A DNA stretch of 48,484 bases, taken from NCBI GenBank assembly GCA_964359735.1, contig CAYHTZ010000007.1, positions 1 through 48,484 on the forward strand. Reading direction: 5' to 3'. The translations under genes were made by a program, and so were the position numbers. Position 1 is the stretch's first letter; each line of letters starts with the position of its first letter. The stretch is from an uncultured Candidatus Saccharibacteria bacterium. Lineage in GTDB: Bacteria; Patescibacteriota; Andersenbacteria; UBA10190. Under the pieces are notes generated by a model that was not told the origin of the DNA, did no database searches, and was given only the letters and a program-made list of their open reading frames with translations. Positions 1 to 48,464 of this stretch are shown here, one piece after another.

Positions 1-1941
1 CACAACCGGTGGCGCGGGTGCATCGGAGGTGGCCACTTTCTGCAGCAGCAGCGTAGTAGTGTGGCCGAACTTATCGGTGGCCTTAAGATATATGTAGTAA
101 GTTGTATTGCGCCAAAGCCCCGTAATCGTGGTCTGCGATGTGCTAAACGTTGTCAGCTTACTGTCATTCGCCGTTGTCCATTTACCTGCCAGCAGCGCAG
201 GGCCTCGTCTCCGCGTCGTGCAACTTGCTGCCTCAGAAGTACTCCTGCCAAAACACAGCTCGTACTTATCAAAATTCTTCTCCGATTCCGGCGTCCAGGC
301 CGGGGTGAGGGAAGTCGAGGTGCGTGCTTTCAGATACAGTCCCGATACCACGGGTGCCTTCGTATCCAGCGCAAAAGACTCGGAAATCACCGTACTGCCT
401 ACATCCGTCCCATCGTACGGCGTCAGACGCAAATACACCGTACTCTCCTCACTACTGGCAAAGTTATCTTTCGCATTCCACGTCACGGTCAGCGTTATTT
501 TCCCGTTGTCTGTATCAATCGAGGCAATGGGGTAGGTGGCCGAGGCTGTGATCGTCGTGTCTCCCTGCGAGGCTACGACACTCTTAATACTTGCCTTCTT
601 CCAGTTTGATTGATCAGTGGAATATTCAACCAGGAGTTGCGTCTTGTCACCATTGGTATCGTTGATATCTGTCTTGAACTCGATCGTATCTGTCTTTTGC
701 GTAATCGAGCGGGGAGCGCTGGCCGTGGGTGCCGTGTTCCCGCTACTCCCTGTGGTGCTGCACGTTGTCCCCGAAAGCGTCCAGTTCGTGTTATTGCCCG
801 ACGAAGCACACCCTGTCGTACAGCTCACCGCGGTGCTATTCGTATTGTTTGAGTCCTTAACGTCAATGTAGGAAACCGTCCGTGTACCCTGAGGGTTGAT
901 GCTCCACTGACTACCGCTCGAGGAAGAACGCAACGACAGTATGTTACAATCAGCGCCGTTCATCGTGAGCGTATTGGTAACCGTTTGCGTAGCTGAGGCT
1001 TCCAGCGTGAGTGTATCCGCGCTCGTAACACTCTTCGTTAAGTTGTAAAAGGTATTGTCGTCATTTAGGGCTTGGCTGGTACCATCAAATGTCACTGTGC
1101 CTGAATTCGCGGTAAATGTTCCCGTATTGCTCCAGGTGCCTGAGACGGTGATGGAGGCGCTGGAGTCAGGCTTTAAAATTCCGTTTGTTGTAATGGAGAC
1201 CGTGGCAAAGTCTGAAGCCGTAGTCGGCTGGAATTGGCCATCGCTGACCGTTAAGGTGTTGACTACAGTCACGGCAGCAGAAGAGTCGACATCAGTATCA
1301 TCTCCAGGCGAAGGAGCTTGATTATTAATAGTGAGATTATAGAATGTTTCCCCGGTGAGGGTTTGGGCGAACGACCCGGCCGCATTATTGAAGGTAACAG
1401 TGCCGGAGTTGTGAGAAAACGTGCCGCCGGTTCGACTCAGGTTGCCAGAGATAGAAAGAGTGCCACTGGTACTGGTAAATGTGCCGCCGGTGATTGTTAG
1501 GTTGCACGAGGTTGCTCCCTGGATGGTAATAGCGCTGCTGCCACCCGCAAACGTACCGCCCGCTTGAGTAAAGTGAGAACAGCCTACCGAGAGCGCGGCG
1601 CTTTGAGTCACGGTACCTGTGTAACCGGATTGCATCGTGAGGCCAACGACATTAAGAGTAGAATCAATGGTGGCACCATTATCGCAGTCAGCGTCAAAAA
1701 TGACTTCATCGCTGCTCGTGGGAGTGACAGGGGAATTACCACTGCCGCACGTCGTCGGATCGGTGGTCTTCCAGTTCAAAGCAGTGTTAGTACTGGCCCC
1801 GTCGCTGCCCACCCAATAAAGAGTGATGGCGTAAGCTGGCCTGCTTGTAACCCAGCCAAAAATGAAGGCAGTTCCAATCAGAACAACAATTGTGGCCAAA
1901 ATCCTCACGGCCAAAGGAAAACCCGGTAGTGTGCCGTACAT
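1..1941 (-). CDS. Giant secreted surface protein, 5' part only (runs off the left edge); beta-rich repeats plus an FN3-like domain
   Basis: Not in the ORF track because there is no stop in the window. My translation of sampled segments from ATG 1941: MYGTLPGFPLAVRILATIVVLIGTAFIFGWVTSRPAYA|ITLYWVGSDGASTNTALNWKTT...SSDEVIFDADC...WSINPQGTRTVSYIDVKDSNNT...TITGLWRNTTYYIYLKATDKFGH. Signal peptide ends in AYA; Thr/Ser/Gly-rich; FN3-like GLxxNTTYYI motif. The frame is consistent in every segment I translated. Confidence 0.85.
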   Translation of the reverse strand, partial: MYGTLPGFPLAVRILATIVVLIGTAFIFGWVTSRPAYAITLYWVGSDGASTNTALNWKTTDPTTCGSGNSPVTPTSSDEVIFDADCDNGATIDSTLNVVGLTMQSGYTGTVTQSAALSVGCSHFTQAGGTFAGGSSAITIQGATSCNLTITGGTFTSTSGTLSISGNLSRTGGTFSHNSGTVTFNNAAGSFAQTLTGETFYNLTINNQAPSPGDDTDVDSSAAVTVVNTLTVSDGQFQPTTASDFATVSITTNGILKPDSSASITVSGTWSNTGTFTANSGTVTFDGTSQALNDDNTFYNLTKSVTSADTLTLEASATQTVTNTLTMNGADCNILSLRSSSSGSQWSINPQGTRTVSYIDVKDSNNTNSTAVSCTTGCASSGNNTNWTLSGTTCSTTGSSGNTAPTASAPRSITQKTDTIEFKTDINDTNGDKTQLLVEYSTDQSNWKKASIKSVVASQGDTTITASATYPIASIDTDNGKITLTVTWNAKDNFASSEESTVYLRLTPYDGTDVGSTVISESFALDTKAPVVSGLYLKARTSTSLTPAWTPESEKNFDKYELCFGRSTSEAASCTTRRRGPALLAGKWTTANDSKLTTFSTSQTTITGLWRNTTYYIYLKATDKFGHTTTLLLQKVATSDAPAPPVV

Positions 1942-16287: not shown

Positions 16288-19125
16288 GTGAGAGTTTCCA
16301 CGCGGGTCGCAGTACTAAGCACCATTCTCCTTCTTCTTACCTCGTCAGTTCAAGCACAAACGGGGGACCCTTCGCCGTTTGGAAATCGCAACATGGATCG
16401 GCCGGGAGCTGAGGGTGATGTTTACCAGCCCCCAGCCATTTTCGTTACGGGCGCACACGTTGAGGTTATTGGTGACAACGTGCAGGGCTCGTTTGAAGCG
16501 TTCAACAATGATCAGGAAACGGTTGGTGATCTCAGCTACCGCATTGATCTTCTATCAGCTCCAGCTGCCGCTGCGGAAAACCAACTCGTTCAAGACGCCC
16601 CAGAAGTGTATGACCAAATGACGAGTACGGAGATATTTGCTCTCATTCCCGGCGAGAAGAAAACTGTTCCTGTAACCTACACTCCTCCACGTGTACCAAA
16701 AGGGGACTATCGCCTCCGCATTCAACTGGTGACCTCAAAAGGGCGAGAATTAGGCTGGTACGACAGCACCGTGAATATTGGTGCTGAGGGTGCCGTTTTC
16801 GTAAAAGTCATTCCCGGCACGATTGATCTTCCCGAATTTCCTGATCAAGTGATCGCGCCAGGCTCGGGTCCAAATGTTGCTCCTGGCTCGTCATTCACTT
16901 TAAATGCCACGCTCCAAAATCTCAGCAAAGAATCGGTTACCGTGCAACCCGTTCTTGAGCGCTACATATTCGATATTGCCCGCGGTCGGGAAGAAAAAAT
17001 TACGTTGGGAGAACCGGTCACACTAGCCACCGGCGAGAGTAAGGAGGTTTCCTTCTCTGTAACTGCGCCCGCCAAGCCTGAAGTGTATGTGGCCATGCTT
17101 TCTCTTGAGGACCCTACCACCAGTGCTCGTGTTTCCAATTGGGCGGAGTATCGCTACGTCGTACGGGGTCTCGATGCCGATATCGTCTCCGCGCGTATTG
17201 CTACGCTTCGAAAACTGAAAGGTGAAGTTACCGAGATACAAGTTGATATCGTGGGCCCAGCCGATGCCGAAACTACGCATAAGGGAACACTCGTCGTGGA
17301 ACTCACGGATTCCCAAGGCATAGTGGGTAGCATCCGAGAAGAGAATCTGGAACTTACCGATGCGCTCCAAGCCGGCATGGCGCGCATTACCTTAGAGCGA
17401 GATCTTACAGGGTCTCCGGGAATAAAAGTCGCCTTGTTTGACCAAGCGGGGAACGTGCTCGATACCTATGAAGTAGCTGCGTCCTTAAATGAAAACCAGA
17501 TCGCGGAATTACTGCGCCAGGCCGCCTCTGCTCCTAAGGCCGGTCTTCCCCTAGGCGTCTGGGCAGGTGGTGCGATTGCTGGGGTAGGAGTTATCGCCCT
17601 CCTCACGTGGTTAGTTATTCATGCTATCCGCAGGCGCCGCTTTCCATCTTTACCCGTACTGTTGCTGATAGTCGTCGGTCTCACTCTTGGTGGCGCCACC
17701 CTCGCCAGCAATGGCATTACGGCCTACATCAATCCCTATACCCTCTATCACTTCTGTGCGCAGTGGGGCGGGGAATGGTGCAATCTGGGCGGTGGCCACA
17801 TTGTGGAACTGTTTATCAATTCACCTGTTCACCAGGCCACGTACCCCAACAGAAATTCCGTACCGGTTTCGTTTCGGGTCACCTTTGTCTCCTGTCAGAA
17901 CCATATGTTCTATGCCCGAAACACGATTCGGTATTCACCGGAAGGAGTCACACATGATAGTTGGCGCCCGCCTGCTGGCACCTCCTGGCACAACATTGTT
18001 GATGCTTTATTTGGAGGAGGCTACGGTGAATGCGCCCGCTATTTCTGTAAAATCAGCCGCTACTACAGCGCCAATGTAAACTTGTCGCAGCTGCCGCCGA
18101 CTCGTGAAACCACCACGCTACAGATCATGAGTGTGCGCGGTGGGCACTACTTCGGCCCTCCACCAGCCTGGAATGAGAATTTGTATGACACTGTCTCAAC
18201 ATGGCCCTACTGGGCACATGCCGTAAACTTGTGGCTCAAGTTCCCGACACCTTTGCCAACGCCAACCGCACCGCCGACTGTCACAACTAACCCACCCCAG
18301 GCATGTAGCACCAGATCATTTGCCACCTCCATCATCGCTTCTTCCGGCAGTCGGAATGGCCAGCCGGAATCTACCCTCTTAGGTGCCCCGGACGGCGTTG
18401 GCCCTGAATTTGGCACTGCTGCCGATTTTGGGACTGGTTTTGTTACGGTAGGCTTCAATCCTGCCATCGCCAATATTCCTGGTCCTGACTTTGGTATCTA
18501 CCTGACTGATTTCTGGGCCGGAGAAGCTGGCCATCAACAAGGGGAAGGGGTTGTAGTCATCGTCACTGACGGCACCCGCTCCGCCTCCCTCGTTTCCCAA
18601 TTGGCCACGTCCACTACTCCCCACGTGGATGAACGGCGCGTCTTTGATATTGCCAGTACTGGCTTATCTCAGGTAACCCAAGTGACCATCCGCAACGTGG
18701 CTGTGGCTCCTGACTTAGATGCCTTTGAGAACATGAGTGTGTGTGGGGAGGGGAGCCCAACTCACACAATAACTCCTCCCGGCGGGCCAGCCGTCTGCTC
18801 CGATGGTCTTGACAATGACAGAGATAAACGCATCGATGCCGCCGACCCCGCCTGCCACCCCGAAGATCGCAAGGCCGAAAACGCTGCCAGCTACCGGCCA
18901 CAGCATACCAGTGAGGCAGATACCGAGTGCTCTGATGCTCAAGACAACCTTGATCCAGAAGATTCGCTTGCTGATGCCGCTGACCCAGGCTGTCACTTTG
19001 ACCGCAAACCCGGCAACGCCGCCTCCTATGTTCCTGCCGATGACAGTGAAATAGATTCTGCCCCTGATACCACGCCGGCTCCTACTGTTCCGATTAATTT
19101 TGAAAGAGCGCGGGAAGTCGACTAG
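16288..19125 (+). CDS. Large secreted/membrane protein: Ig-like N-module, TM, internal signal-like segment, Cys-rich module, beta-sandwich, two CSDGxDND repeats
   Basis: Signal SSVQA|QT; beta-sandwich-like motifs (GDYRLRIQLVT); TM about 17545-17628; RRRRF+hydrophobic+TLA ending 17706; PT linker; CSDGLDNDRDKRIDAADPAC and CSDAQDN...DAADPGC. Confidence 0.85.
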   Translation: MRVSTRVAVLSTILLLLTSSVQAQTGDPSPFGNRNMDRPGAEGDVYQPPAIFVTGAHVEVIGDNVQGSFEAFNNDQETVGDLSYRIDLLSAPAAAAENQLVQDAPEVYDQMTSTEIFALIPGEKKTVPVTYTPPRVPKGDYRLRIQLVTSKGRELGWYDSTVNIGAEGAVFVKVIPGTIDLPEFPDQVIAPGSGPNVAPGSSFTLNATLQNLSKESVTVQPVLERYIFDIARGREEKITLGEPVTLATGESKEVSFSVTAPAKPEVYVAMLSLEDPTTSARVSNWAEYRYVVRGLDADIVSARIATLRKLKGEVTEIQVDIVGPADAETTHKGTLVVELTDSQGIVGSIREENLELTDALQAGMARITLERDLTGSPGIKVALFDQAGNVLDTYEVAASLNENQIAELLRQAASAPKAGLPLGVWAGGAIAGVGVIALLTWLVIHAIRRRRFPSLPVLLLIVVGLTLGGATLASNGITAYINPYTLYHFCAQWGGEWCNLGGGHIVELFINSPVHQATYPNRNSVPVSFRVTFVSCQNHMFYARNTIRYSPEGVTHDSWRPPAGTSWHNIVDALFGGGYGECARYFCKISRYYSANVNLSQLPPTRETTTLQIMSVRGGHYFGPPPAWNENLYDTVSTWPYWAHAVNLWLKFPTPLPTPTAPPTVTTNPPQACSTRSFATSIIASSGSRNGQPESTLLGAPDGVGPEFGTAADFGTGFVTVGFNPAIANIPGPDFGIYLTDFWAGEAGHQQGEGVVVIVTDGTRSASLVSQLATSTTPHVDERRVFDIASTGLSQVTQVTIRNVAVAPDLDAFENMSVCGEGSPTHTITPPGGPAVCSDGLDNDRDKRIDAADPACHPEDRKAENAASYRPQHTSEADTECSDAQDNLDPEDSLADAADPGCHFDRKPGNAASYVPADDSEIDSAPDTTPAPTVPINFERAREVD

Positions 19126-19152: not shown

Positions 19153-21378
19153 GTGAAAACGCTGCCCAAGGTTGCTGCAGCCAGCGTAGTTTTCCTTCTC
19201 TTTGCCTCCTCAGTTCAGGCGCAGACGCAGGGTGCTTCGCCTTTTGGTAACCGTGGTTCAGCTCAAGGAGAAGCGTATTTGCCGCCGGCGGTGTTTGTGG
19301 ACCACGTCACGCTGGAAAACATTTCGACAGCGGGTGTAGCTGGAGCTTTTGTAGTTTCAAGCCAAAATCAAGACGCCGTTGGAGATCTGCGCTACCGTAT
19401 TGAAGTCTTAAGCCCCCTTCCCCCCGAATCAGCCACAACCGTAGTTGAGGATGCCCCGGATGTGTATGACATCCAGCTAGCTGAGGAAGTATTCGCCCTG
19501 GCGCCGAACATGGAAAAGAGAATGCGCTTTGAATATAAAGTGCCGCCGTTACCGGCCGGAGATTATCGGCTGCGGGTGCAGATTGTTACCTCTCAAGGCC
19601 GCAAGCTCGGCTGGCAAGATATTGCGGTTACGCTTCCGGGATCCCAAGTTCAGTTTTTGAGGTTGCTGCCGGGCACGATTTCCTTACCAGAATTTCCCGG
19701 CGAAATTATTCCCGCCACGAGCGGCCCCAATGTAGCTCCCGGAGGGTCTCTCACACTGCGAGCCACCGTGCGCAATCCGCACGCTGTACCTATCACGGTA
19801 GTACCCGTACTGAATACGTATGAATTTGCGCTTGAGAGAGGAGGAGACACCCCTCAGCGATTTGATGCTATCGTTCTCAATGCTGGCGAAGAGAAAGCTG
19901 TAGCCTTGCCACTCCAGGCAGCTACCCAACCTGCGGTGTATGAGTCGTGGCTCATGCTAGAGAAAGACGGTCTTCGCGTCTCACCCATGGTGGAATATCG
20001 CTGGGTTGTGAAAGGGGAGGATGCGCATATTGTCTCGGCTCGAATTGCGGAAATGGCCCGTGAAAAGGGCCAATCCATGACAATTCAAGTGGAATACGCC
20101 GGTCCGGGTGATGCAGAAACGAATCTCCTGGGCATTCTTGAGGTGACCGTGCGGGATCAGCAGGGCGATGTCGGTACTACAGCTGTCCCTGATTTGTCTC
20201 TGTCTGACCGAATCGAATCCGGCTTGGCCCGCGTGGAGTTAACGCGGCCACTCGTTGGCGCACCTGGACTGCGGGTTGTGTTGAAGGATTCAAGCGGGGA
20301 AGTACTCAATACCTATGACATCTCCATTCCATTAACTGAGGCGGAGTTGGCAACACTGCCAGCTGCCACCGCAGTGCAGCCACTGTCAGCGTACTGGCGA
20401 GTGGCAATCGCTGCCCTCGCCGGCTCTGCCCTCGCGGGAATTTTCCTGCTGGTCTGGTACCTCTTGCGCCGCCGGTCTCAACCTCCCGCCACCCCGCCAG
20501 CTACTCCCACTCTCCTGCTCATCGGAGTCATACTAAGTATCGTAGGCCTAGGAGGAGCCAGCACCGTCTGGGCACTAGGGAACGGAAACGGGATCAACGT
20601 GTTTGTGCCCCCCACCGGATGCCAATTTCACGGCAGCTGGTGTGAGTTGCCCGGCTATGTCATTGAAATTTTTGTGAACCAGCCTCGGCATAACCGTGCC
20701 GAGCCGTATAATCGCACACAGGTGCCGGTATCGTTTCGGGCCACCTGGGGAGTATGTGAAAATCGCACGGGATATTCCCAAAACATTCTAGCCAACTTGC
20801 CCCGCGGGGGGAAATACAGCGCCTGGGAAAATCAACCTGGGAACCCCTGGCAGGAGTTAGCCTACATGGTCTTCGCCGCGAATAGGTGCGGCGCCGATCT
20901 CTGTAAAGCCTCTCGCGATTTTGCCGGTACCTTGAACATGGGTAACGTTATCCCCGAAGCGGATGACACCACACTCAACATCACCTCAAGTTGGAACTGG
21001 AGTTATTATCCCGAGCGGCTCACACCGGCTCATTACACCCCCGAGGTGCGAGCTATTTTTCAGCGGTATGGCGCCATTCACGCCGTAAACGTATGGCTGA
21101 ACCTCATACCTATCGCTACCCCAGCTCCAACGATTACTCCCACAGGGTCACCCACAAACACCCCTCCCAGCGCCTCGAGTGCGGTCTGCTCCGACGGCGT
21201 TGATAACGATAATGATGAACGGACTGATGCTGCGGACCCCGCCTGCCATTCTGACCGCAACCCTAACAACCCTGCTTCCTACCAGCCTGCTGATAATGAT
21301 GAGCAAGATTCATCTCCTGACATAACGCTTACTCCTACCCCTGCCACACAGCCTGGCAAGATCATAGAGATCGATTAA
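19153..21378 (+). CDS. Paralog of 16288-19125 (no extra beta-sandwich; one CSDGxDND repeat)
   Basis: SSVQAQT, GDLRYRIEVLS, GDYRLRVQIVTSQGRKLGW, SGPNVAPG, VPVSFRATW and CSDGVDNDNDERTDAADPAC all match the upstream gene. Confidence 0.85.
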   Translation: MKTLPKVAAASVVFLLFASSVQAQTQGASPFGNRGSAQGEAYLPPAVFVDHVTLENISTAGVAGAFVVSSQNQDAVGDLRYRIEVLSPLPPESATTVVEDAPDVYDIQLAEEVFALAPNMEKRMRFEYKVPPLPAGDYRLRVQIVTSQGRKLGWQDIAVTLPGSQVQFLRLLPGTISLPEFPGEIIPATSGPNVAPGGSLTLRATVRNPHAVPITVVPVLNTYEFALERGGDTPQRFDAIVLNAGEEKAVALPLQAATQPAVYESWLMLEKDGLRVSPMVEYRWVVKGEDAHIVSARIAEMAREKGQSMTIQVEYAGPGDAETNLLGILEVTVRDQQGDVGTTAVPDLSLSDRIESGLARVELTRPLVGAPGLRVVLKDSSGEVLNTYDISIPLTEAELATLPAATAVQPLSAYWRVAIAALAGSALAGIFLLVWYLLRRRSQPPATPPATPTLLLIGVILSIVGLGGASTVWALGNGNGINVFVPPTGCQFHGSWCELPGYVIEIFVNQPRHNRAEPYNRTQVPVSFRATWGVCENRTGYSQNILANLPRGGKYSAWENQPGNPWQELAYMVFAANRCGADLCKASRDFAGTLNMGNVIPEADDTTLNITSSWNWSYYPERLTPAHYTPEVRAIFQRYGAIHAVNVWLNLIPIATPAPTITPTGSPTNTPPSASSAVCSDGVDNDNDERTDAADPACHSDRNPNNPASYQPADNDEQDSSPDITLTPTPATQPGKIIEID

Positions 21379-44755: not shown

Positions 44756-45217
44756 TTACCGAATCTGCTTGGCGAGCTTCAAGGCCTTTTTGAACTGGGA
44801 GGGCCTTACCGCCACATAGAATACGGCTTTTTCCCCTCTGCCCGTTGAAGCATGGAAGGCGTTTTCTATGTTGACGCGCCCGTTCGCGAGTTTGCGCGCA
44901 ATGGCTGCAATGACACCCGGGCGATCATCTGCGCAGTAAAATTTTAAGATTTCGGAAGTCGCAATTCTTTTACCCCGAGACGAGAGTACCTTTTTAGCCT
45001 TTGGAACGTTATCCACCACCAAATTATCGATGACAGTTTTCCCTCCCGAATGAGTTACTCCCACGCCATCAATGCTCACATCGGCAGCTGCCAGCGCCTC
45101 AGCAATATTGGCTAGCTCTCCTGGCTTATCAGTAAGCTTTACGCTGATTTGGGTCACTGGCTTCACCGTGACTTTGACCCCTCGCTTCGTTTTGGTTTTC
45201 GCTTTGGCTTTAGCCAT
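44756..45217 (-). CDS. Stand-alone tandem-ACT-domain protein with basic N-terminal tail
   Basis: QISVKLTDKPGELANIAEALAAADVSI; DRPGVIAAIARKLANGRVNIE. Confidence 0.87.
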   Translation of the reverse strand: MAKAKAKTKTKRGVKVTVKPVTQISVKLTDKPGELANIAEALAAADVSIDGVGVTHSGGKTVIDNLVVDNVPKAKKVLSSRGKRIATSEILKFYCADDRPGVIAAIARKLANGRVNIENAFHASTGRGEKAVFYVAVRPSQFKKALKLAKQIR

Positions 45218-45246
45218 ATCGAATATGCTTATGAATTAATGGGTAT

Positions 45247-45690
45247 TCAAACTTCCTGCGCAAGCTTTAGTGCCTTCTCAAAGCTCTCCTTGGCAACCGC
45301 AACGTAAACTACCGCGGCTTTCCCTCGGCCGGTGGAGGCGTAGTACATATTCTCTATATTAATTCCGTCGTCTCCAAGCTTACGAGCAATGGCCGCGATT
45401 ACGCCTGGTCGGTCATTGGAATAGTAAAAGTGCAACACTTCATCCGTGGATACTTTTTTGCCCATCGCCTCAATCGCCTTTATTGCCGCGGCCACGTTAT
45501 CAACTACCAAGTTTTCTTTTACCTTGCTCTCTGATACCGTGCGGCCAATACCCTCAATGTTGACGCCTGCCTCAGCAAGAGCCGCGGCAATTTTTGCCAG
45601 CTCCCCCGGAATATTATCAAGCGTGACGCTGATTTGGGTGGCAGCTTTAACACTGACCTCGCCCGTTTGTTTTGCTCCTTCTTCAGCCAT
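45247..45690 (-). CDS. Stand-alone tandem-ACT-domain protein (paralog)
   Basis: QISVTLDNIPGELAKIAAALAEAGVNIE; DRPGVIAAIARKLGDDGINIE. Confidence 0.87.
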   Translation of the reverse strand: MAEEGAKQTGEVSVKAATQISVTLDNIPGELAKIAAALAEAGVNIEGIGRTVSESKVKENLVVDNVAAAIKAIEAMGKKVSTDEVLHFYYSNDRPGVIAAIARKLGDDGINIENMYYASTGRGKAAVVYVAVAKESFEKALKLAQEV

Positions 45691-45772: not shown

Positions 45773-46516
45773 ATGGCTTCGATCCCCAAGCATGACGCTT
45801 TCTTTAAAAACTTACTGGATCGATTTTCTGTTCGCGAGGCGGACTTTGAGGCCTTCTCTTCTTTCTACACGGGTGACTACGAAAACTACGACAATAAAGT
45901 CTACGATGATTTGAAAGTATGCCTCGTCCACTTACGAGAATTTCTGAATGACAGCTGGTGGAACAATCGCTTTCACTTCCTGTGGAAATATTTTAGTCGC
46001 TACGAGCAAATTATCGACCTTGGCTTCAGTGTTCCATACTTGCCGGTTCGCTTGGCGCTACAAAATCAACTCAGCGAGCTTCCTTCCTTATTGTATGTTG
46101 AAAATAACCCATACTCAGAAAAATTTGCTCGTGAAATTTTGGAACTCCTTGGAGCTTCAGCTAGTTTTGTTACCGGCAACCTAGAGGAGAAAAACACCTG
46201 GGAAAACATTGCTAAATACACTCGTGAAGGGAAAAAACTCTTTTCAGCTTTTGAAGTTATTGAACATTTAAACAATCGAGAGGTGTTCTGGGTAAACCTT
46301 CAGTCCTTTTCTGGCTCGGATATGATGCTGAGTTTGCCCATTGGACCAAAGATCCCGTCCCATCATCTAGCGTTGAGCCGCGCCGCCGAGGCGGAGAAGT
46401 ATGTATCGCAGTACCTCGAAGTCGCGGAGAAAACGATTTTTGATGGCTCAAGCCAGGGGAGCAAGTTTAGTATCTTTACCGCCGTCGGAGCTATTAAGCC
46501 TACTGCCGCGGTGTAA
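45773..46516 (+). CDS. Putative class I methyltransferase-fold protein
   Basis: IIDLGFS (degenerate motif I), YVENNP, FVTGNLE, FEVIEHL. Confidence 0.6.
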   Translation: MASIPKHDAFFKNLLDRFSVREADFEAFSSFYTGDYENYDNKVYDDLKVCLVHLREFLNDSWWNNRFHFLWKYFSRYEQIIDLGFSVPYLPVRLALQNQLSELPSLLYVENNPYSEKFAREILELLGASASFVTGNLEEKNTWENIAKYTREGKKLFSAFEVIEHLNNREVFWVNLQSFSGSDMMLSLPIGPKIPSHHLALSRAAEAEKYVSQYLEVAEKTIFDGSSQGSKFSIFTAVGAIKPTAAV

Positions 46517-46523
46517 AACCTTC

Positions 46524-48464
46524 CTACACGATAAGCACCCTGGTCTGCAGAAGGTGCAAGTCTGCATTTCTGTCGATTGTCCACTCGACATCCTGCGGCG
46601 CATCAAATTCCTCCTCGAGGCTCATGTACATTGCGAAGAGGGCCTGGCACTGTTCGTCAGTGATGCCAGTTTTTTCCTGCGCTCCGGCCACATGGAGGCG
46701 CCGCCGCGTCTTTTTATCGAAAATCACTTTGGTCACCTCTGCCGTTCCATCGACAACACCTGCAGCTAGGCCGCGCGTGATTTCAATGACAACCTGATTC
46801 TTGTCCTTCATCTCAAGATTGCCGCCGAATATCACGCCGGAAAACTGTGGCGGTATCATCTCCTGTATCACCACCGCCATTTTCGCACTTTGCATCCCTA
46901 GGTCGCGCAGGAGGCTCACGACTGTCTCGCGGTGAGCCGATCGCCACACCAGCTGAACCGCACGCGGAATGTCCGGCATGGCTACGTTGATCTCAGTGTG
47001 AAATTGTCCCGCGAAGGCATTGACCTCACCGTCTTCGACATTAGCGCTGGAGCGTACGGAGTAGCGCTTGGCTGAGTCAAGTGTCCCGAGAAAAGTGGTG
47101 AATTCCTGGCTCGTAAGAAACCTCTCAGCATCAGCCTGCCGGGTGGTGACCACCGCACCAGGGGGAACCCGGTAGCCAAGAGCCATTAGTTTCCCCAGGT
47201 GGTATGCTTTACTGCCAACCAGCTCTGGTGAGTAAAGGCTAGCTTCTACCAGCGGCACGACGTTCCGCTTTTCGTCAATTGCTGGTGAGAGTTCCTCAAT
47301 CGTGGCGTGCCCTGCTTTCGCCGAGATTCGAACGTGACTCCCGTTCTTGAATTCCTTTGTTCCCACCACAAATGCATGGTGGCCTGCATCAACGAGCACG
47401 CGCATAGCGTGAGCCGTTGCACTCGTGCCAGGGTAGAGAATGTTCAGGTTCTCCTTCACTGACGCAATGGCATTGAGAGTGCCGTAGTCACGTTTTTGCA
47501 CCACCTTGCGGCCCACGAAGAGGATTTGGTTTGAGTTCCCCCGCTCAACGAAGCGAAGATCTTGTGGGCCATTGATAACAAGTACCTCACCCTCGCGATA
47601 GATCTCTTCGACCTGAGTATCATCGATCTCATAGCGAAATAGTTCGTTATAGTACATTTCATGCCCGTCGAAGGCGAACTCAACCCGCTGTGGATGCCGC
47701 ATCAACTCTGAAGTTTCTCGTACCACTAGTGCCGCCTCCAAGATTTCCAGATCACTAAGCACCTGTTCGAATTGAAATCGGAGGGGCAGCTTAAGCTTCT
47801 CAGCGTCAGAAAGGTGTGTGGTACAGATAGCGAACTCTTTTTGTGGGACAGATTTATCGGTGATAATAAGTCGCTCAATGTCAACTGTATATTCATCACT
47901 TCCAGGCAGCGATTGAACCCCTTCGTTGTTGCCGAAGACAGCGATGATGCGCACTGACCTGGCCTGGGCATCATTGGGAACTGCGTAGCCGCCGCGGGGC
48001 AGGATTGCGCTTTCAGGAATCTCGGCACCAAACTTGACGGTGGCGATAAATGGGTGGAAGAATGCCTCAATCGTGCTGCCTGTTTCCCGGTCATAGCCCT
48101 GGGTAACGGCAAACGTAAACACATTTTCTATTGCGGATATCACCTGTTCTGGAGTCTTAAGCCCGAGGTGCCTTGGACCTGGTGGATTTTCGAGGCTCGG
48201 CACATAGAAAGCCCGGCGTACAGCAATGAGTCCCGTAGCTGCGAGGGCTACCAATCGGGGAACCTCAGTGTGAATGCGTACTTTATCTTCAGGAGACAGC
48301 GTACTGTGGTCACGGAAATAGTGGAATGAATCGTGCGTTACAACGCAGGTATCAACTGTTTTGCCTACGGTGCGGCTCAGTCGTTTCTGGATTACGCCAA
48401 GTACTCGCAGCCCCCCAATTCTCTCACTATCTCCCTGATATTTTTCTATTGCTGTAATTGCCAT
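46524..48464 (-). CDS. Dikinase-like protein: degenerate PPDK_N ATP-grasp, phospho-His swivel, intact PPDK_N ATP-grasp
   Basis: C-terminal: GSKAYHL, VPPG, VRSSANVED..AFAGQF, VVIQEM, DVEW, LLQTR. Middle: GTSATAHAMRVL (His codon 47409-11). N-terminal: AVRRA, FGNNEGVQS, PQRVEFAFDG. Confidence 0.8.
   Translation of the reverse strand: MAITAIEKYQGDSERIGGLRVLGVIQKRLSRTVGKTVDTCVVTHDSFHYFRDHSTLSPEDKVRIHTEVPRLVALAATGLIAVRRAFYVPSLENPPGPRHLGLKTPEQVISAIENVFTFAVTQGYDRETGSTIEAFFHPFIATVKFGAEIPESAILPRGGYAVPNDAQARSVRIIAVFGNNEGVQSLPGSDEYTVDIERLIITDKSVPQKEFAICTTHLSDAEKLKLPLRFQFEQVLSDLEILEAALVVRETSELMRHPQRVEFAFDGHEMYYNELFRYEIDDTQVEEIYREGEVLVINGPQDLRFVERGNSNQILFVGRKVVQKRDYGTLNAIASVKENLNILYPGTSATAHAMRVLVDAGHHAFVVGTKEFKNGSHVRISAKAGHATIEELSPAIDEKRNVVPLVEASLYSPELVGSKAYHLGKLMALGYRVPPGAVVTTRQADAERFLTSQEFTTFLGTLDSAKRYSVRSSANVEDGEVNAFAGQFHTEINVAMPDIPRAVQLVWRSAHRETVVSLLRDLGMQSAKMAVVIQEMIPPQFSGVIFGGNLEMKDKNQVVIEITRGLAAGVVDGTAEVTKVIFDKKTRRRLHVAGAQEKTGITDEQCQALFAMYMSLEEEFDAPQDVEWTIDRNADLHLLQTRVLIV

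What the first reader, a model, noticed from the sequence alone, without database searches (positions are those of the whole stretch)
46524..48464. Dikinase-like protein with a phospho-His swivel between two PPDK_N ATP-grasp domains
Seen: the C-terminal ~280 aa are a recognisable PEP-synthase/PPDK nucleotide-binding domain, preceded by a swivel-like motif that retains His (GTSATAHAMRVL vs canonical GGxTSHAA). The N-terminal ~290 aa track the same ATP-grasp fold with altered catalytic motifs (VRRA for VRSS, FGNNEGVQS for WGxGExVVSG, QRVEFAFDG for QDIEW). Established: PEP synthase and rifampin phosphotransferase put the ATP-grasp first; glucan-water dikinases put substrate domain, His, then a C-terminal ATP-grasp. 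There is no PEP/pyruvate TIM barrel here. Inference: an uncharacterised dikinase whose duplicated, degenerate ATP-grasp serves as acceptor site, possibly for a nucleotide-like or small-molecule substrate.
Basis: partly seen in the sequence, partly recalled or inferred. Interest (0 to 1): 0.7.

Follow-up and report, generated by a model that had tools for sequence, protein, structure and literature searches.

The report
Swivel-histidine kinase with two ATP-grasp domains
This gene from a tiny uncultured bacterium encodes an uncharacterised relative of PEP synthase and rifampin phosphotransferase in which an invariant, probably phosphate-carrying histidine sits between an intact ATP-binding domain and a strongly conserved, remodelled copy of that domain, so it most likely moves phosphate from ATP to an unknown acceptor and is not a PEP synthase.

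Summary
Window 46524-48464 (-) is a complete 646-aa ORF with three modules.

- **C-terminal domain (aa 398-646):** a PPDK_N ATP-grasp with every tested ATP-site residue kept in 42/42 homologs.
- **Middle segment (aa 284-397):** His352 is invariant. The model's strand/helix order and its colinearity with PEP synthase and PPDK fit a phospho-His swivel domain, but no sequence profile detects one.
- **N-terminal domain (aa 1-283):** a true but remodelled PPDK_N ATP-grasp (Pfam 29 bits alone; family profile against PEP synthase E 1.8e-10; TM 0.65 to the RPH ATP-grasp). It is the most conserved part of the protein, so it is repurposed rather than decayed.

No TIM barrel, rifampin-binding domain or CBM is present.

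New here:
- The same modules occur split into two overlapping genes in two loci, one of them a DPANN (Aenigmarchaeota) MAG.
- They also occur permuted (ATP-grasp, then N-domain, then His).
- 24 of 42 homologs carry an N-terminal extension that scores as a ribbon-helix-helix domain in the three of four examples tested.

The family is small (55-100 representative clusters among 1.84 billion). It is sporadic (absent from 34 same-family and 6 same-order genomes) and has no conserved neighbourhood.

Best reading: ATP charges His352 at the C-domain, and the His segment carries the phosphate to an acceptor held by the N-domain. The acceptor is unknown, probably anionic. This is a new variant of a known enzyme kind, of moderate interest.

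The parts
46524..48464 (-). Complete ORF, 646 aa plus stop codon (P0001): three-module swivel-His phosphotransferase candidate
   Evidence: ORF list and translation. In-frame TGA four codons upstream of the ATG. About 43 near-full-length homologs at 32-52% identity. AlphaFold model pLDDT 87, pTM 0.77.
47616..48464 (-). N-terminal remodelled ATP-grasp (aa 1-283), proposed acceptor-binding module
   Evidence: PPDK_N 29 bits alone. N+His profile against PEP synthase and RPH ATP-grasp, E 1.8e-10 and 2e-9. Foldseek TM 0.65 to 5hv6_B and 0.57 to HpeI. Colinear hhalign with the protein's own C-domain. Invariant or near-invariant: R84, N93-P-P-G-P-R98, G178-NNEGVQS, K204, K209, Q234, D238, E240, R260, E262, N273, E274. 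Mean pairwise identity 0.49, the highest of the three modules.
47274..47615 (-). His-carrying swivel-like segment (aa 284-397), with low-confidence stretches at both ends in the models
   Evidence: Model strand/helix order (beta, alpha, beta, alpha, beta, His helix, beta, beta, beta), with pLDDT dips at aa 281-290 and 391-400. Foldseek alignments to PEP synthase 2ols (469 columns) and PPDK (about 580 columns) are longer than an ATP-grasp alone. hhalign to canonical swivels is colinear with His on His but weak, E 0.12. No Pfam PEP-utilizers hit.
47409..47411 (-). Codon of His352, the proposed phospho-carrier histidine
   Evidence: H in 42/42 homologs, within the motif Y-P-G-x-S-A-T-A-H-A-M-R-V-L-x-D-x-G-H-x-A-x-V-V-G. 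Also kept in the archaeal split form P0046, the permuted form P0078 and the divergent paralog in L032.
46527..47273 (-). C-terminal intact PPDK_N ATP-grasp (aa 398-646), proposed ATP site
   Evidence: PPDK_N 124.8 bits. phmmer to RPH and PEP synthase structures at E 7e-16 and weaker. Counterparts of RPH Lys22, Arg117, Thr136 and Glu297 are K419, R471, T/S490 and E627; these, plus Q640 and R642 of the LQTR motif, are kept in 42/42. Aligns end-to-end with the stand-alone archaeal ATP-grasp partner, E 1e-35.

Best explanation
The protein is a three-module, swivelling-histidine phosphotransferase of the PEP synthase / PPDK / rifampin-phosphotransferase superfamily.

Proposed cycle:
1. The intact C-terminal ATP-grasp binds Mg-ATP and pyrophosphorylates or phosphorylates His352, releasing AMP and Pi (or PPi).
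2. The small His segment, which has low-confidence stretches at both ends in the models, moves to the N-terminal domain.
3. The N-terminal domain, an ATP-grasp remodelled into a basic pocket, holds the acceptor that receives the phosphoryl group.

The acceptor is unknown. The extra conserved arginines (R83, R98, R260), together with the retained R84 and E262, suggest an anionic ligand, possibly one that carries a phosphate or resembles a nucleotide.

Shown here: the domain identities, the intact ATP site, the invariant His, and the modular split and permuted relatives.

Inferred: His phosphorylation, swivelling, the acceptor role of the N-domain and the nature of the acceptor.
For: - **C-domain.** PPDK_N at 124.8 bits. 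All counterparts of the mutationally defined RPH ATP-site residues are invariant in 42 homologs.
- **His352.** Invariant. It lies in the first turn of a helix, in a segment whose strand/helix order and colinearity with PEP synthase and PPDK fit the central His domain.
- **N-domain.** A genuine ATP-grasp homolog. It lacks the Lys22 counterpart, has Thr136 replaced by Arg98 and the QD of QDIEW replaced by (R/Q)R. It is nevertheless the most conserved module.
- **Modularity.** An Aenigmarchaeota MAG (L007) and L032 encode N+His and the ATP-grasp as two overlapping genes. P0078, P0181 and P0200 have the order ATP-grasp, N-domain, His, which is RPH's module order.
- **Characterised precedent.** In HpeHI the swivel travels with the acceptor domain and the ATP-grasp is a separate subunit. 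Mutating its conserved His abolishes activity (PMC12167813).
- **Model flexibility.** pLDDT dips on both sides of the His segment.
Against: - There is no biochemical evidence of any kind.
- The His segment is not recognised by the PEP-utilizers profile, and profile-profile support is weak (E 0.12).
- No ligand or conserved operon points to a substrate.
- The N-domain could be regulatory rather than catalytic.
- I could not read the model coordinates, so the geometry of His352 relative to the two pockets was not examined.
- The gene is sporadic, absent from 34 same-family and 6 same-order genomes, so it is not tied to any core pathway that might identify the acceptor.
Confidence: 0.6

Rival explanations
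1. Signalling or regulatory kinase. The C-domain autophosphorylates His352, but the N-domain is a ligand-sensing or scaffolding pseudo-enzyme domain rather than an acceptor site. The phospho-His state, or transfer to a partner protein, is the output. In the RHH-fused relatives it would control DNA binding, giving an ATP- or metabolite-responsive repressor.
For: - VadK (Rv1127c) is a PPDK-derived protein without a TIM barrel. It autophosphorylates its His and acts through protein interactions (PMC13400623).
- 24 of 42 homologs carry an N-terminal extension of 52-79 aa that scores as RHH_1 above the gathering score where tested.
- ACT-domain genes lie next to the window's gene and next to P0078.
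- The distribution is sporadic and accessory.
Against: - The window's protein and its closest relatives have no RHH domain.
- The N-domain keeps phosphate- and metal-ligand counterparts (R84, E181, E262) and a very strongly conserved pocket-like motif set. That is more than a scaffold would need.
- No partner gene is conserved.
Confidence: 0.2
2. Nucleotide-to-nucleotide phosphotransferase. Both ATP-grasp domains bind nucleotides, and His352 shuttles a phosphoryl or pyrophosphoryl group from ATP to an NMP, NDP or other nucleotide held in the N-domain. This is a special case of the main explanation with a defined acceptor class.
For: - The N-domain is homologous to a nucleotide-binding domain and keeps R84 (Arg117 counterpart), E262 (Glu297 counterpart) and E181.
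- An archaeal-type UMP kinase gene lies next to the N+His gene in L029 (170 bits, above the cut-off). A UMP-kinase-like gene lies next to it in L007.
- An NT5C-like gene is present in L029.
- NUDIX genes lie near the gene in 4 loci, directly upstream on the same strand in L012 and L013.
Against: - The Lys22 counterpart is deleted, and the adenine-hinge QEM motif is replaced by YPFxDP.
- The two UMP-kinase adjacencies are in proteins 50% identical to each other, so they may be one inherited arrangement.
- NUDIX genes are probably frequent in small genomes like these (my expectation, not tested here).
- NDK is present in the window's genome, in 40 of 41 relatives and in 7 of 11 carriers, so the gene fills no NDP-kinase gap.
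Confidence: 0.12
3. Reverse-direction, energy-conserving enzyme. As PPDK does in anaerobes, it takes phosphate from a high-energy phospho-donor bound at the N-domain, passes it to His352, and makes ATP from AMP plus PPi or Pi at the C-domain.
For: PPDK-family chemistry is reversible, which is established knowledge for PPDK. The host has a very small (1.12 Mb) genome, and I presume it is fermentative. The ATP site is fully intact.
Against: A central energy enzyme should be widespread in the lineage, but it is absent from all 34 same-family and 6 same-order genomes. No donor-producing pathway genes are linked to it.
Confidence: 0.06

Closest known systems
Rifampin phosphotransferase (RPH-Lm; PDB 5HV1, 5FBS, 5HV6)
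   Same: Best sequence and fold match for both ATP-grasp domains. Three-module logic of ATP-grasp, acceptor domain and His swivel, with no TIM barrel. The ATP-site residues Lys22, Arg117, Thr136 and Glu297 are conserved in the C-domain. The permuted relatives P0078, P0181 and P0200 have RPH's module order.
   Different: The acceptor module is a remodelled ATP-grasp, not the rifampin-binding domain. PF27448, which the RPH-like hits carry, is not hit. In the window's protein the His segment is central and the ATP-grasp C-terminal. NCBIfam RPH model: 92 bits against a cut-off of 999.
Two-component small-molecule dikinases (HpeHI; phenylphosphate-synthase-like)
   Same: The ATP-grasp can be a separate polypeptide while the swivel His stays fused to the acceptor domain (PMC12167813). 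That arrangement is found in L007 and L032. HpeI (9goj) is a top fold hit. The window's own genome also has a conventional pair of this kind (L002).
   Different: The acceptor domain of HpeH resembles the rifampin-binding domain, whereas here it is ATP-grasp-derived. The swivel sequence here is highly divergent (TAHAM instead of GGxTSHAA). The window's version is a single fused chain.
PEP synthase / pyruvate phosphate dikinase
   Same: The N+His part is colinear with the ATP-grasp plus central His domain of PEP synthase 2ols and PPDK 1kbl. It belongs to the same superfamily and would share the swivelling-His chemistry.
   Different: There is no PEP/pyruvate TIM barrel, and a second, intact ATP-grasp takes its place. 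The first ATP-grasp has lost the Lys22 counterpart. NCBIfam PEP synthase models score about 80-99 bits against cut-offs of about 600-980.
Glucan, water dikinase (GWD/PWD) of plants
   Same: Same order along the chain: acceptor module, His domain, C-terminal PPDK_N ATP-grasp.
   Different: No CBM45 or CBM20 carbohydrate-binding module was found in Pfam. The lineage is prokaryotic (Patescibacteria and DPANN-type MAGs). No direct sequence or fold hit to a GWD was obtained.
VadK (Rv1127c) of Mycobacterium tuberculosis
   Same: A PPDK-derived ATP-grasp plus phospho-His protein without a TIM barrel that autophosphorylates on His (PMC13400623).
   Different: VadK has only two modules and no second ATP-grasp-like domain. 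It is described as regulatory.

Membership tests
PEP synthase / PPDK (EC 2.7.9.2 / 2.7.9.1) | C-terminal PEP/pyruvate-binding TIM barrel (PEP-utilizers_C) | tested here: not met
   Pfam scan at E <= 1 finds only PPDK_N. The C-terminal third is an ATP-grasp.
PEP synthase / PPDK (EC 2.7.9.2 / 2.7.9.1) | Score above the curated equivalog cut-offs | tested here: not met
   NCBIfam PEP synthase models score 80-99 bits against cut-offs of 598-976. The PPDK model scores 17.7 bits against 843.
Rifampin phosphotransferase | Rifampin-binding domain between the ATP-grasp and a C-terminal swivel | tested here: not met
   No PF27448 hit, a domain the RPH-like hits carry. NF041857 scores 92 bits against a cut-off of 999. 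The module between or beside the other two is ATP-grasp-like.
Swivelling-His dikinase superfamily (general) | PPDK_N ATP-grasp with intact nucleotide and phosphate ligands | tested here: met
   K419, R471, T/S490, E627, Q640 and R642 are kept in 42/42 homologs. Mapping to RPH residues.
Swivelling-His dikinase superfamily (general) | Conserved catalytic His at the start of a helix in a small swivel domain | tested here: met
   H352 is kept in 42/42 homologs. The model's helix 348-359 and strand order fit a swivel domain. hhalign puts His on His.
Swivelling-His dikinase superfamily (general) | Swivel domain recognisable as PEP-utilizers (PF00391) by sequence | tested here: not met
   No PF00391 hit at E <= 10 on aa 282-400. 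hhalign against canonical swivels gives E 0.12. The A2 profile gives no significant swivel match in the PDB.
Swivelling-His dikinase superfamily (general) | ATP-dependent phosphorylation of the His and transfer to an acceptor, with AMP and Pi as products | not testable with these tools
   Needs biochemistry.
Two-component dikinases (HpeHI type) | Separate ATP-grasp subunit, plus a subunit that carries the swivel and the acceptor domain | tested here: inconclusive
   The window's protein is a single chain. Its relatives in L007 and L032 are split in exactly this way, but their acceptor domain is of a different fold class from that of HpeH.
Glucan, water dikinase | N-terminal starch-binding CBM45 or CBM20 | tested here: not met
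   No CBM hit in Pfam. The N-domain is ATP-grasp-like.

The most novel reading that the evidence does not exclude
The remodelled N-terminal ATP-grasp is a second nucleotide (or nucleotide-like cofactor) site. The enzyme would then be a single-chain ATP:nucleotide phospho- or pyrophosphotransferase that uses a swivelling phospho-His, a chemistry not known for this superfamily. In the RHH-fused majority of the family, the same ligand-dependent cycle would gate DNA binding, making those proteins enzyme-repressors comparable to PutA or NadR.
Probability: 0.12. Interest if true: 0.75.

Novelty: new variant of a known kind. Interest (0 to 1): 0.5.

Why it matters
Swivelling-His dikinases are a small set of mechanistically striking enzymes: PPDK, PEP synthase, glucan water dikinase, RPH, PigC/RedH and HpeHI. 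Each new acceptor module has so far revealed new biology, such as antibiotic resistance, starch turnover or aromatic catabolism.

This family adds an acceptor module built from a duplicated and repurposed ATP-grasp. It occurs fused, split and permuted, and it is confined, as far as sampled, to ultra-small Patescibacteria and DPANN-type MAGs, whose metabolism is poorly known. Where sources name these proteins at all, the names seen were 'hypothetical protein', 'PEP/pyruvate-binding domain-containing protein' and 'pyruvate, water dikinase'. The last is wrong and can distort metabolic reconstructions of these organisms.

Finding the acceptor would define a new enzyme activity. The RHH fusions hint at an enzyme coupled to transcription control.

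The limits are that the family is small and sporadic, and no substrate clue emerged.

Tried and rejected
1. **Terminal repeat or circular overlap.** The ORF at 1-1941 (-) has the same length as the target, but it is an unrelated Thr/Ser-rich repeat protein, and no long direct repeat exists.
2. **Conserved operon.** All-against-all BLAST of the flanking ORFs in the fetched loci found no widely shared neighbour, only a NUDIX-like ORF in 4 loci. The 247-aa and 251-aa neighbours in the window and in L003 are unrelated.
3. **Defence-system or phage protein.** PADLOC and PHROGs gave nothing meaningful.
4. **Substitute for a missing nucleoside-diphosphate kinase.** NDK is present in the window's own genome, in 40 of 41 relatives and in 7 of 11 carriers.
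5. **Core metabolic enzyme of the lineage.** The gene is absent from all 34 same-family and 6 same-order genomes.
6. **Detecting the swivel by sequence.** Pfam PEP-utilizers gave no hit, the A2 profile gave no significant swivel match in the PDB, and hhalign gave E 0.12.
7. **Internal duplication by profile-profile comparison.** The N- and C-halves align colinearly, but only at E 0.028. The external evidence is what carries the claim.
8. **EGFR-kinase hits to the N+His profile.** Judged spurious.
9. **Model geometry.** The coordinates are not readable in the Python box, so distances from His352 to the two pockets were not measured.
10. **Literature.** No paper describing this architecture was found.
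Full report
**1. The observation**

Window 46524-48464 (-) holds a 646-aa ORF. The window is a whole contig (C7) of a 1.12-Mb, 41-contig genome, and the gene abuts the contig end. An in-frame TGA four codons upstream of the ATG shows that the ORF is complete. A same-length ORF at the other end of the contig is unrelated.

Pfam finds only PPDK_N, at 146.5 bits in 4 stretches. The three parts were also scanned separately:

| Part | Result |
|---|---|
| C-terminal part, aa 390-646 | PPDK_N, 124.8 bits |
| N-terminal part, aa 1-282 | PPDK_N on its own, 29.0 bits, E 8.5e-7 (gathering score 27) |
| Middle, aa 282-400 | no match to PEP-utilizers |

NCBIfam equivalogs for PEP synthase, PPDK, RPH and PigC/RedH all score far below their cut-offs, for example 98.7 against 866 and 92 against 999.

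**2. The family**

A word-indexed search found about 43 near-full-length homologs at 32-52% identity. Where a source names an organism, it is Dojkabacteria or 'Patescibacteria group'.

In the 42-sequence alignment:
- His352 is invariant, inside the motif Y-P-G-x-S-A-T-A-H-A-M-R-V-L-x-D-x-G-H-x-A-x-V-V-G.
- The RPH paper defines Lys22, Arg117, Thr136 and Glu297 as the ATP-site residues (PMC4844700). Through the alignment these map to K419, R471, T490 and E627. All are kept in 42/42 homologs (T or S at 490).
- Q640 and R642 of the LQTR motif are also kept in 42/42.

The C-domain is therefore a competent ATP site by every sequence criterion I could test.

**3. The N-domain is a real ATP-grasp that has been remodelled**

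- A profile of the N+His part alone (A2) hits the ATP-grasp of PEP synthase 8a8e at E 1.8e-10 and of RPH 5hv6 at E 2e-9.
- An AlphaFold model of aa 1-395 (pLDDT 87) matches the isolated RPH ATP-binding domain (5hv6_B, TM 0.65, E 3e-13) and HpeI (TM 0.57).
The score is weak, E 0.028.

In that alignment the Lys22 counterpart is deleted. Thr136 becomes the near-invariant R98. The QD of QDIEW becomes (R/Q)R260. The Arg117 and Glu297 counterparts (R84, E262) are invariant.

The domain is not decaying. Its mean pairwise identity is 0.49, against 0.44 for each of the other two modules, and it has the largest share of columns conserved at 90% or more. Several added arginines around the retained phosphate and metal ligands suggest an anionic ligand. 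This last point is inference.

**4. The His segment**

No sequence method recognises it as PEP-utilizers. hhalign against five canonical swivel domains gives only E 0.12. That alignment is nonetheless colinear over the whole domain and puts H352 on the catalytic His.

Both models give the strand/helix order beta, alpha, beta, alpha, beta, His helix, beta, beta, beta, with His352 in the first turn of helix 348-359. pLDDT dips on both sides, at aa 281-290 and 391-400.

Foldseek alignments of the N+His model to PEP synthase 2ols (469 columns) and PPDK (about 580 columns) are longer than an ATP-grasp alone. This suggests that N+His is colinear with the ATP-grasp plus central His domain. I rate the swivel assignment as well supported but not proven.

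**5. Modular relatives, the strongest new evidence**

- **Split form.** In an Aenigmarchaeota MAG (L007), a 368-aa N+His gene overlaps a 290-aa ATP-grasp gene by 8 nt. That ATP-grasp aligns end-to-end with the window's C-domain, E 1e-35. The same split pair recurs in L032, followed by a divergent fused paralog.
- **Exhaustive search.** A profile search over 1.84 billion representatives finds 55 clusters at E <= 1e-30 and 100 at E <= 1e-10. Many are N+His-only proteins of 360-410 aa.
- **Permuted form.** P0078, P0181 and P0200 have the order ATP-grasp, N-domain, His, which is RPH's module order.
- **Association.** In the split and permuted forms seen, the N-domain stays joined to the His segment, while the ATP-grasp may be a separate gene. 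That is the arrangement of the characterised two-component dikinase HpeHI. There the swivel is fused to the acceptor domain, and mutating the conserved His abolishes activity (PMC12167813).

This is the main support for reading the N-domain as the second reaction site.

**6. RHH fusions**

24 of the 42 homologs carry an N-terminal extension of 52-79 aa. Of four examples scanned, two of three excised extensions scored as RHH_1 (28.1 bits, above the 20.5 cut-off, and 14.9, below it). The full-length P0031 scored 23.6, and the fourth extension gave no hit at the threshold used. The window's protein and its closest relatives lack the extension.

**7. Distribution and context**

- Pattern-based scanning of species-representative genomes gave 16 loci. 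They come from Patescibacteria lineages and from MAGs labelled Woesearchaeota, Aenigmatarchaeota and Bathyarchaeia. Some labels, such as 'Gammaproteobacteria', look doubtful to me for genomes of 0.7-1.8 Mb.
- Among 60 relatives of the window's genome, none of the 34 same-family or 6 same-order genomes has the gene. It is a sporadic accessory gene.
- Neighbourhoods are not conserved.
- The recurring hints are weak. NUDIX genes occur in 4 loci. An archaeal-type UMP kinase lies next to the N+His gene in L029 (above the cut-off) and a UMP-kinase-like gene next to it in L007 (below it). Those two N+His proteins are 50% identical, so this may be one inherited arrangement. ACT-domain genes lie next to the window's gene and next to P0078.
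- PADLOC and PHROGs give nothing.
- NDK is present in the window's genome, in 40 of 41 relatives and in 7 of 11 carriers. The gene does not fill an NDP-kinase gap.

**8. Mechanism and rivals**

| Reading | My odds |
|---|---|
| ATP at the C-domain charges His352 (AMP plus Pi or PPi released), and the His segment carries the phosphate to an acceptor in the N-domain pocket | 0.6 |
| Signalling or pseudo-enzyme reading modelled on VadK (PMC13400623), favoured by the RHH fusions | 0.2 |
| Nucleotide acceptor, a special case of the main reading | 0.12 |
| Reverse, ATP-forming direction | 0.06 |

**9. Comparison and novelty**

The protein works like RPH or HpeHI but fails the membership tests for PEP synthase/PPDK (no TIM barrel), RPH (no rifampin-binding domain) and GWD (no CBM). 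The acceptor module, an ATP-grasp-derived domain, is to my knowledge undescribed. Three literature searches found no paper on it.

It is an unchecked AI note and does not count as independent evidence.

Verdict: a new variant of a known kind, of moderate interest. The missing substrate and the small, sporadic family limit its interest.

Noticed in passing
G000 contig C6, about 52.6-54.8 kb (locus L002, 2-2184): The same genome has a conventional two-component dikinase. One gene of at least 392 aa (open at the locus end) encodes a helical domain plus a textbook swivel (EQGGVTSHAAIVAREMNTPCVIGT). A 333-aa PPDK_N ATP-grasp gene follows it 3 nt later, much as in HpeHI.
   Followed up: partly
G000:C1:106978-107496 (-) and the equivalent genes in relatives: Nucleoside-diphosphate kinase matches its Pfam profile in two pieces (1-52 and about 58-135) inside one open frame of about 200 aa. 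This holds in the window's genome and in nearly all same-family, same-order and same-class relatives, and implies an insertion of roughly 30 aa. Four of the more distant phylum members have the uninterrupted form in 165-185 aa.
   Followed up: no
window 44756-45690 (-): Two tandem genes each encode a protein made of a pair of ACT domains (153 and 147 aa), about 1 kb from the target gene. An ACT_7 gene also lies next to the permuted family member P0078 in L031.
   Followed up: partly
window 45773-46516 (+): A 247-aa ORF converges on the target gene, ending 8 nt from its stop codon. It has no hit in Pfam or NCBIfam. To my eye its sequence (IIDLGFSVPYLP ... FEVIEHL) resembles a SAM-dependent methyltransferase.
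   Followed up: partly
window 1-1941 (-): An open-ended protein of at least 647 aa, rich in Thr, Ser, Gly and Asn repeats, with an N-terminal hydrophobic segment. It looks like a large surface or secreted protein that runs off the contig.
   Followed up: no
window 18790-18857 and 21181-21248: A 68-nt direct repeat at 78% identity lies inside two adjacent large ORFs (16288-19125 and 19153-21378). It probably reflects paralogous Cys/Asp-rich repeat modules.
   Followed up: no
L032 5001-9258: A split pair (377-aa N+His and 287-aa ATP-grasp, 4-nt overlap) is followed in tandem by a divergent fused paralog of 710 aa, 27% identical to the window's protein.
   Followed up: partly
L033 5001-6390 and L034 3927-5316: Here the N+His gene (375 aa) is overlapped by an 89-aa gene with a faint HTH_45 hit, and no ATP-grasp gene is adjacent. 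The partner may be encoded elsewhere.
   Followed up: no
A2 profile positions 26-126 (window protein aa about 26-126): The N+His profile gives E-values of 0.02 to 2e-6 against EGFR kinase-domain chains in the PDB. This is probably a chance word match (ENPPGPRFLG against DNPHVCRLLG).
   Followed up: no
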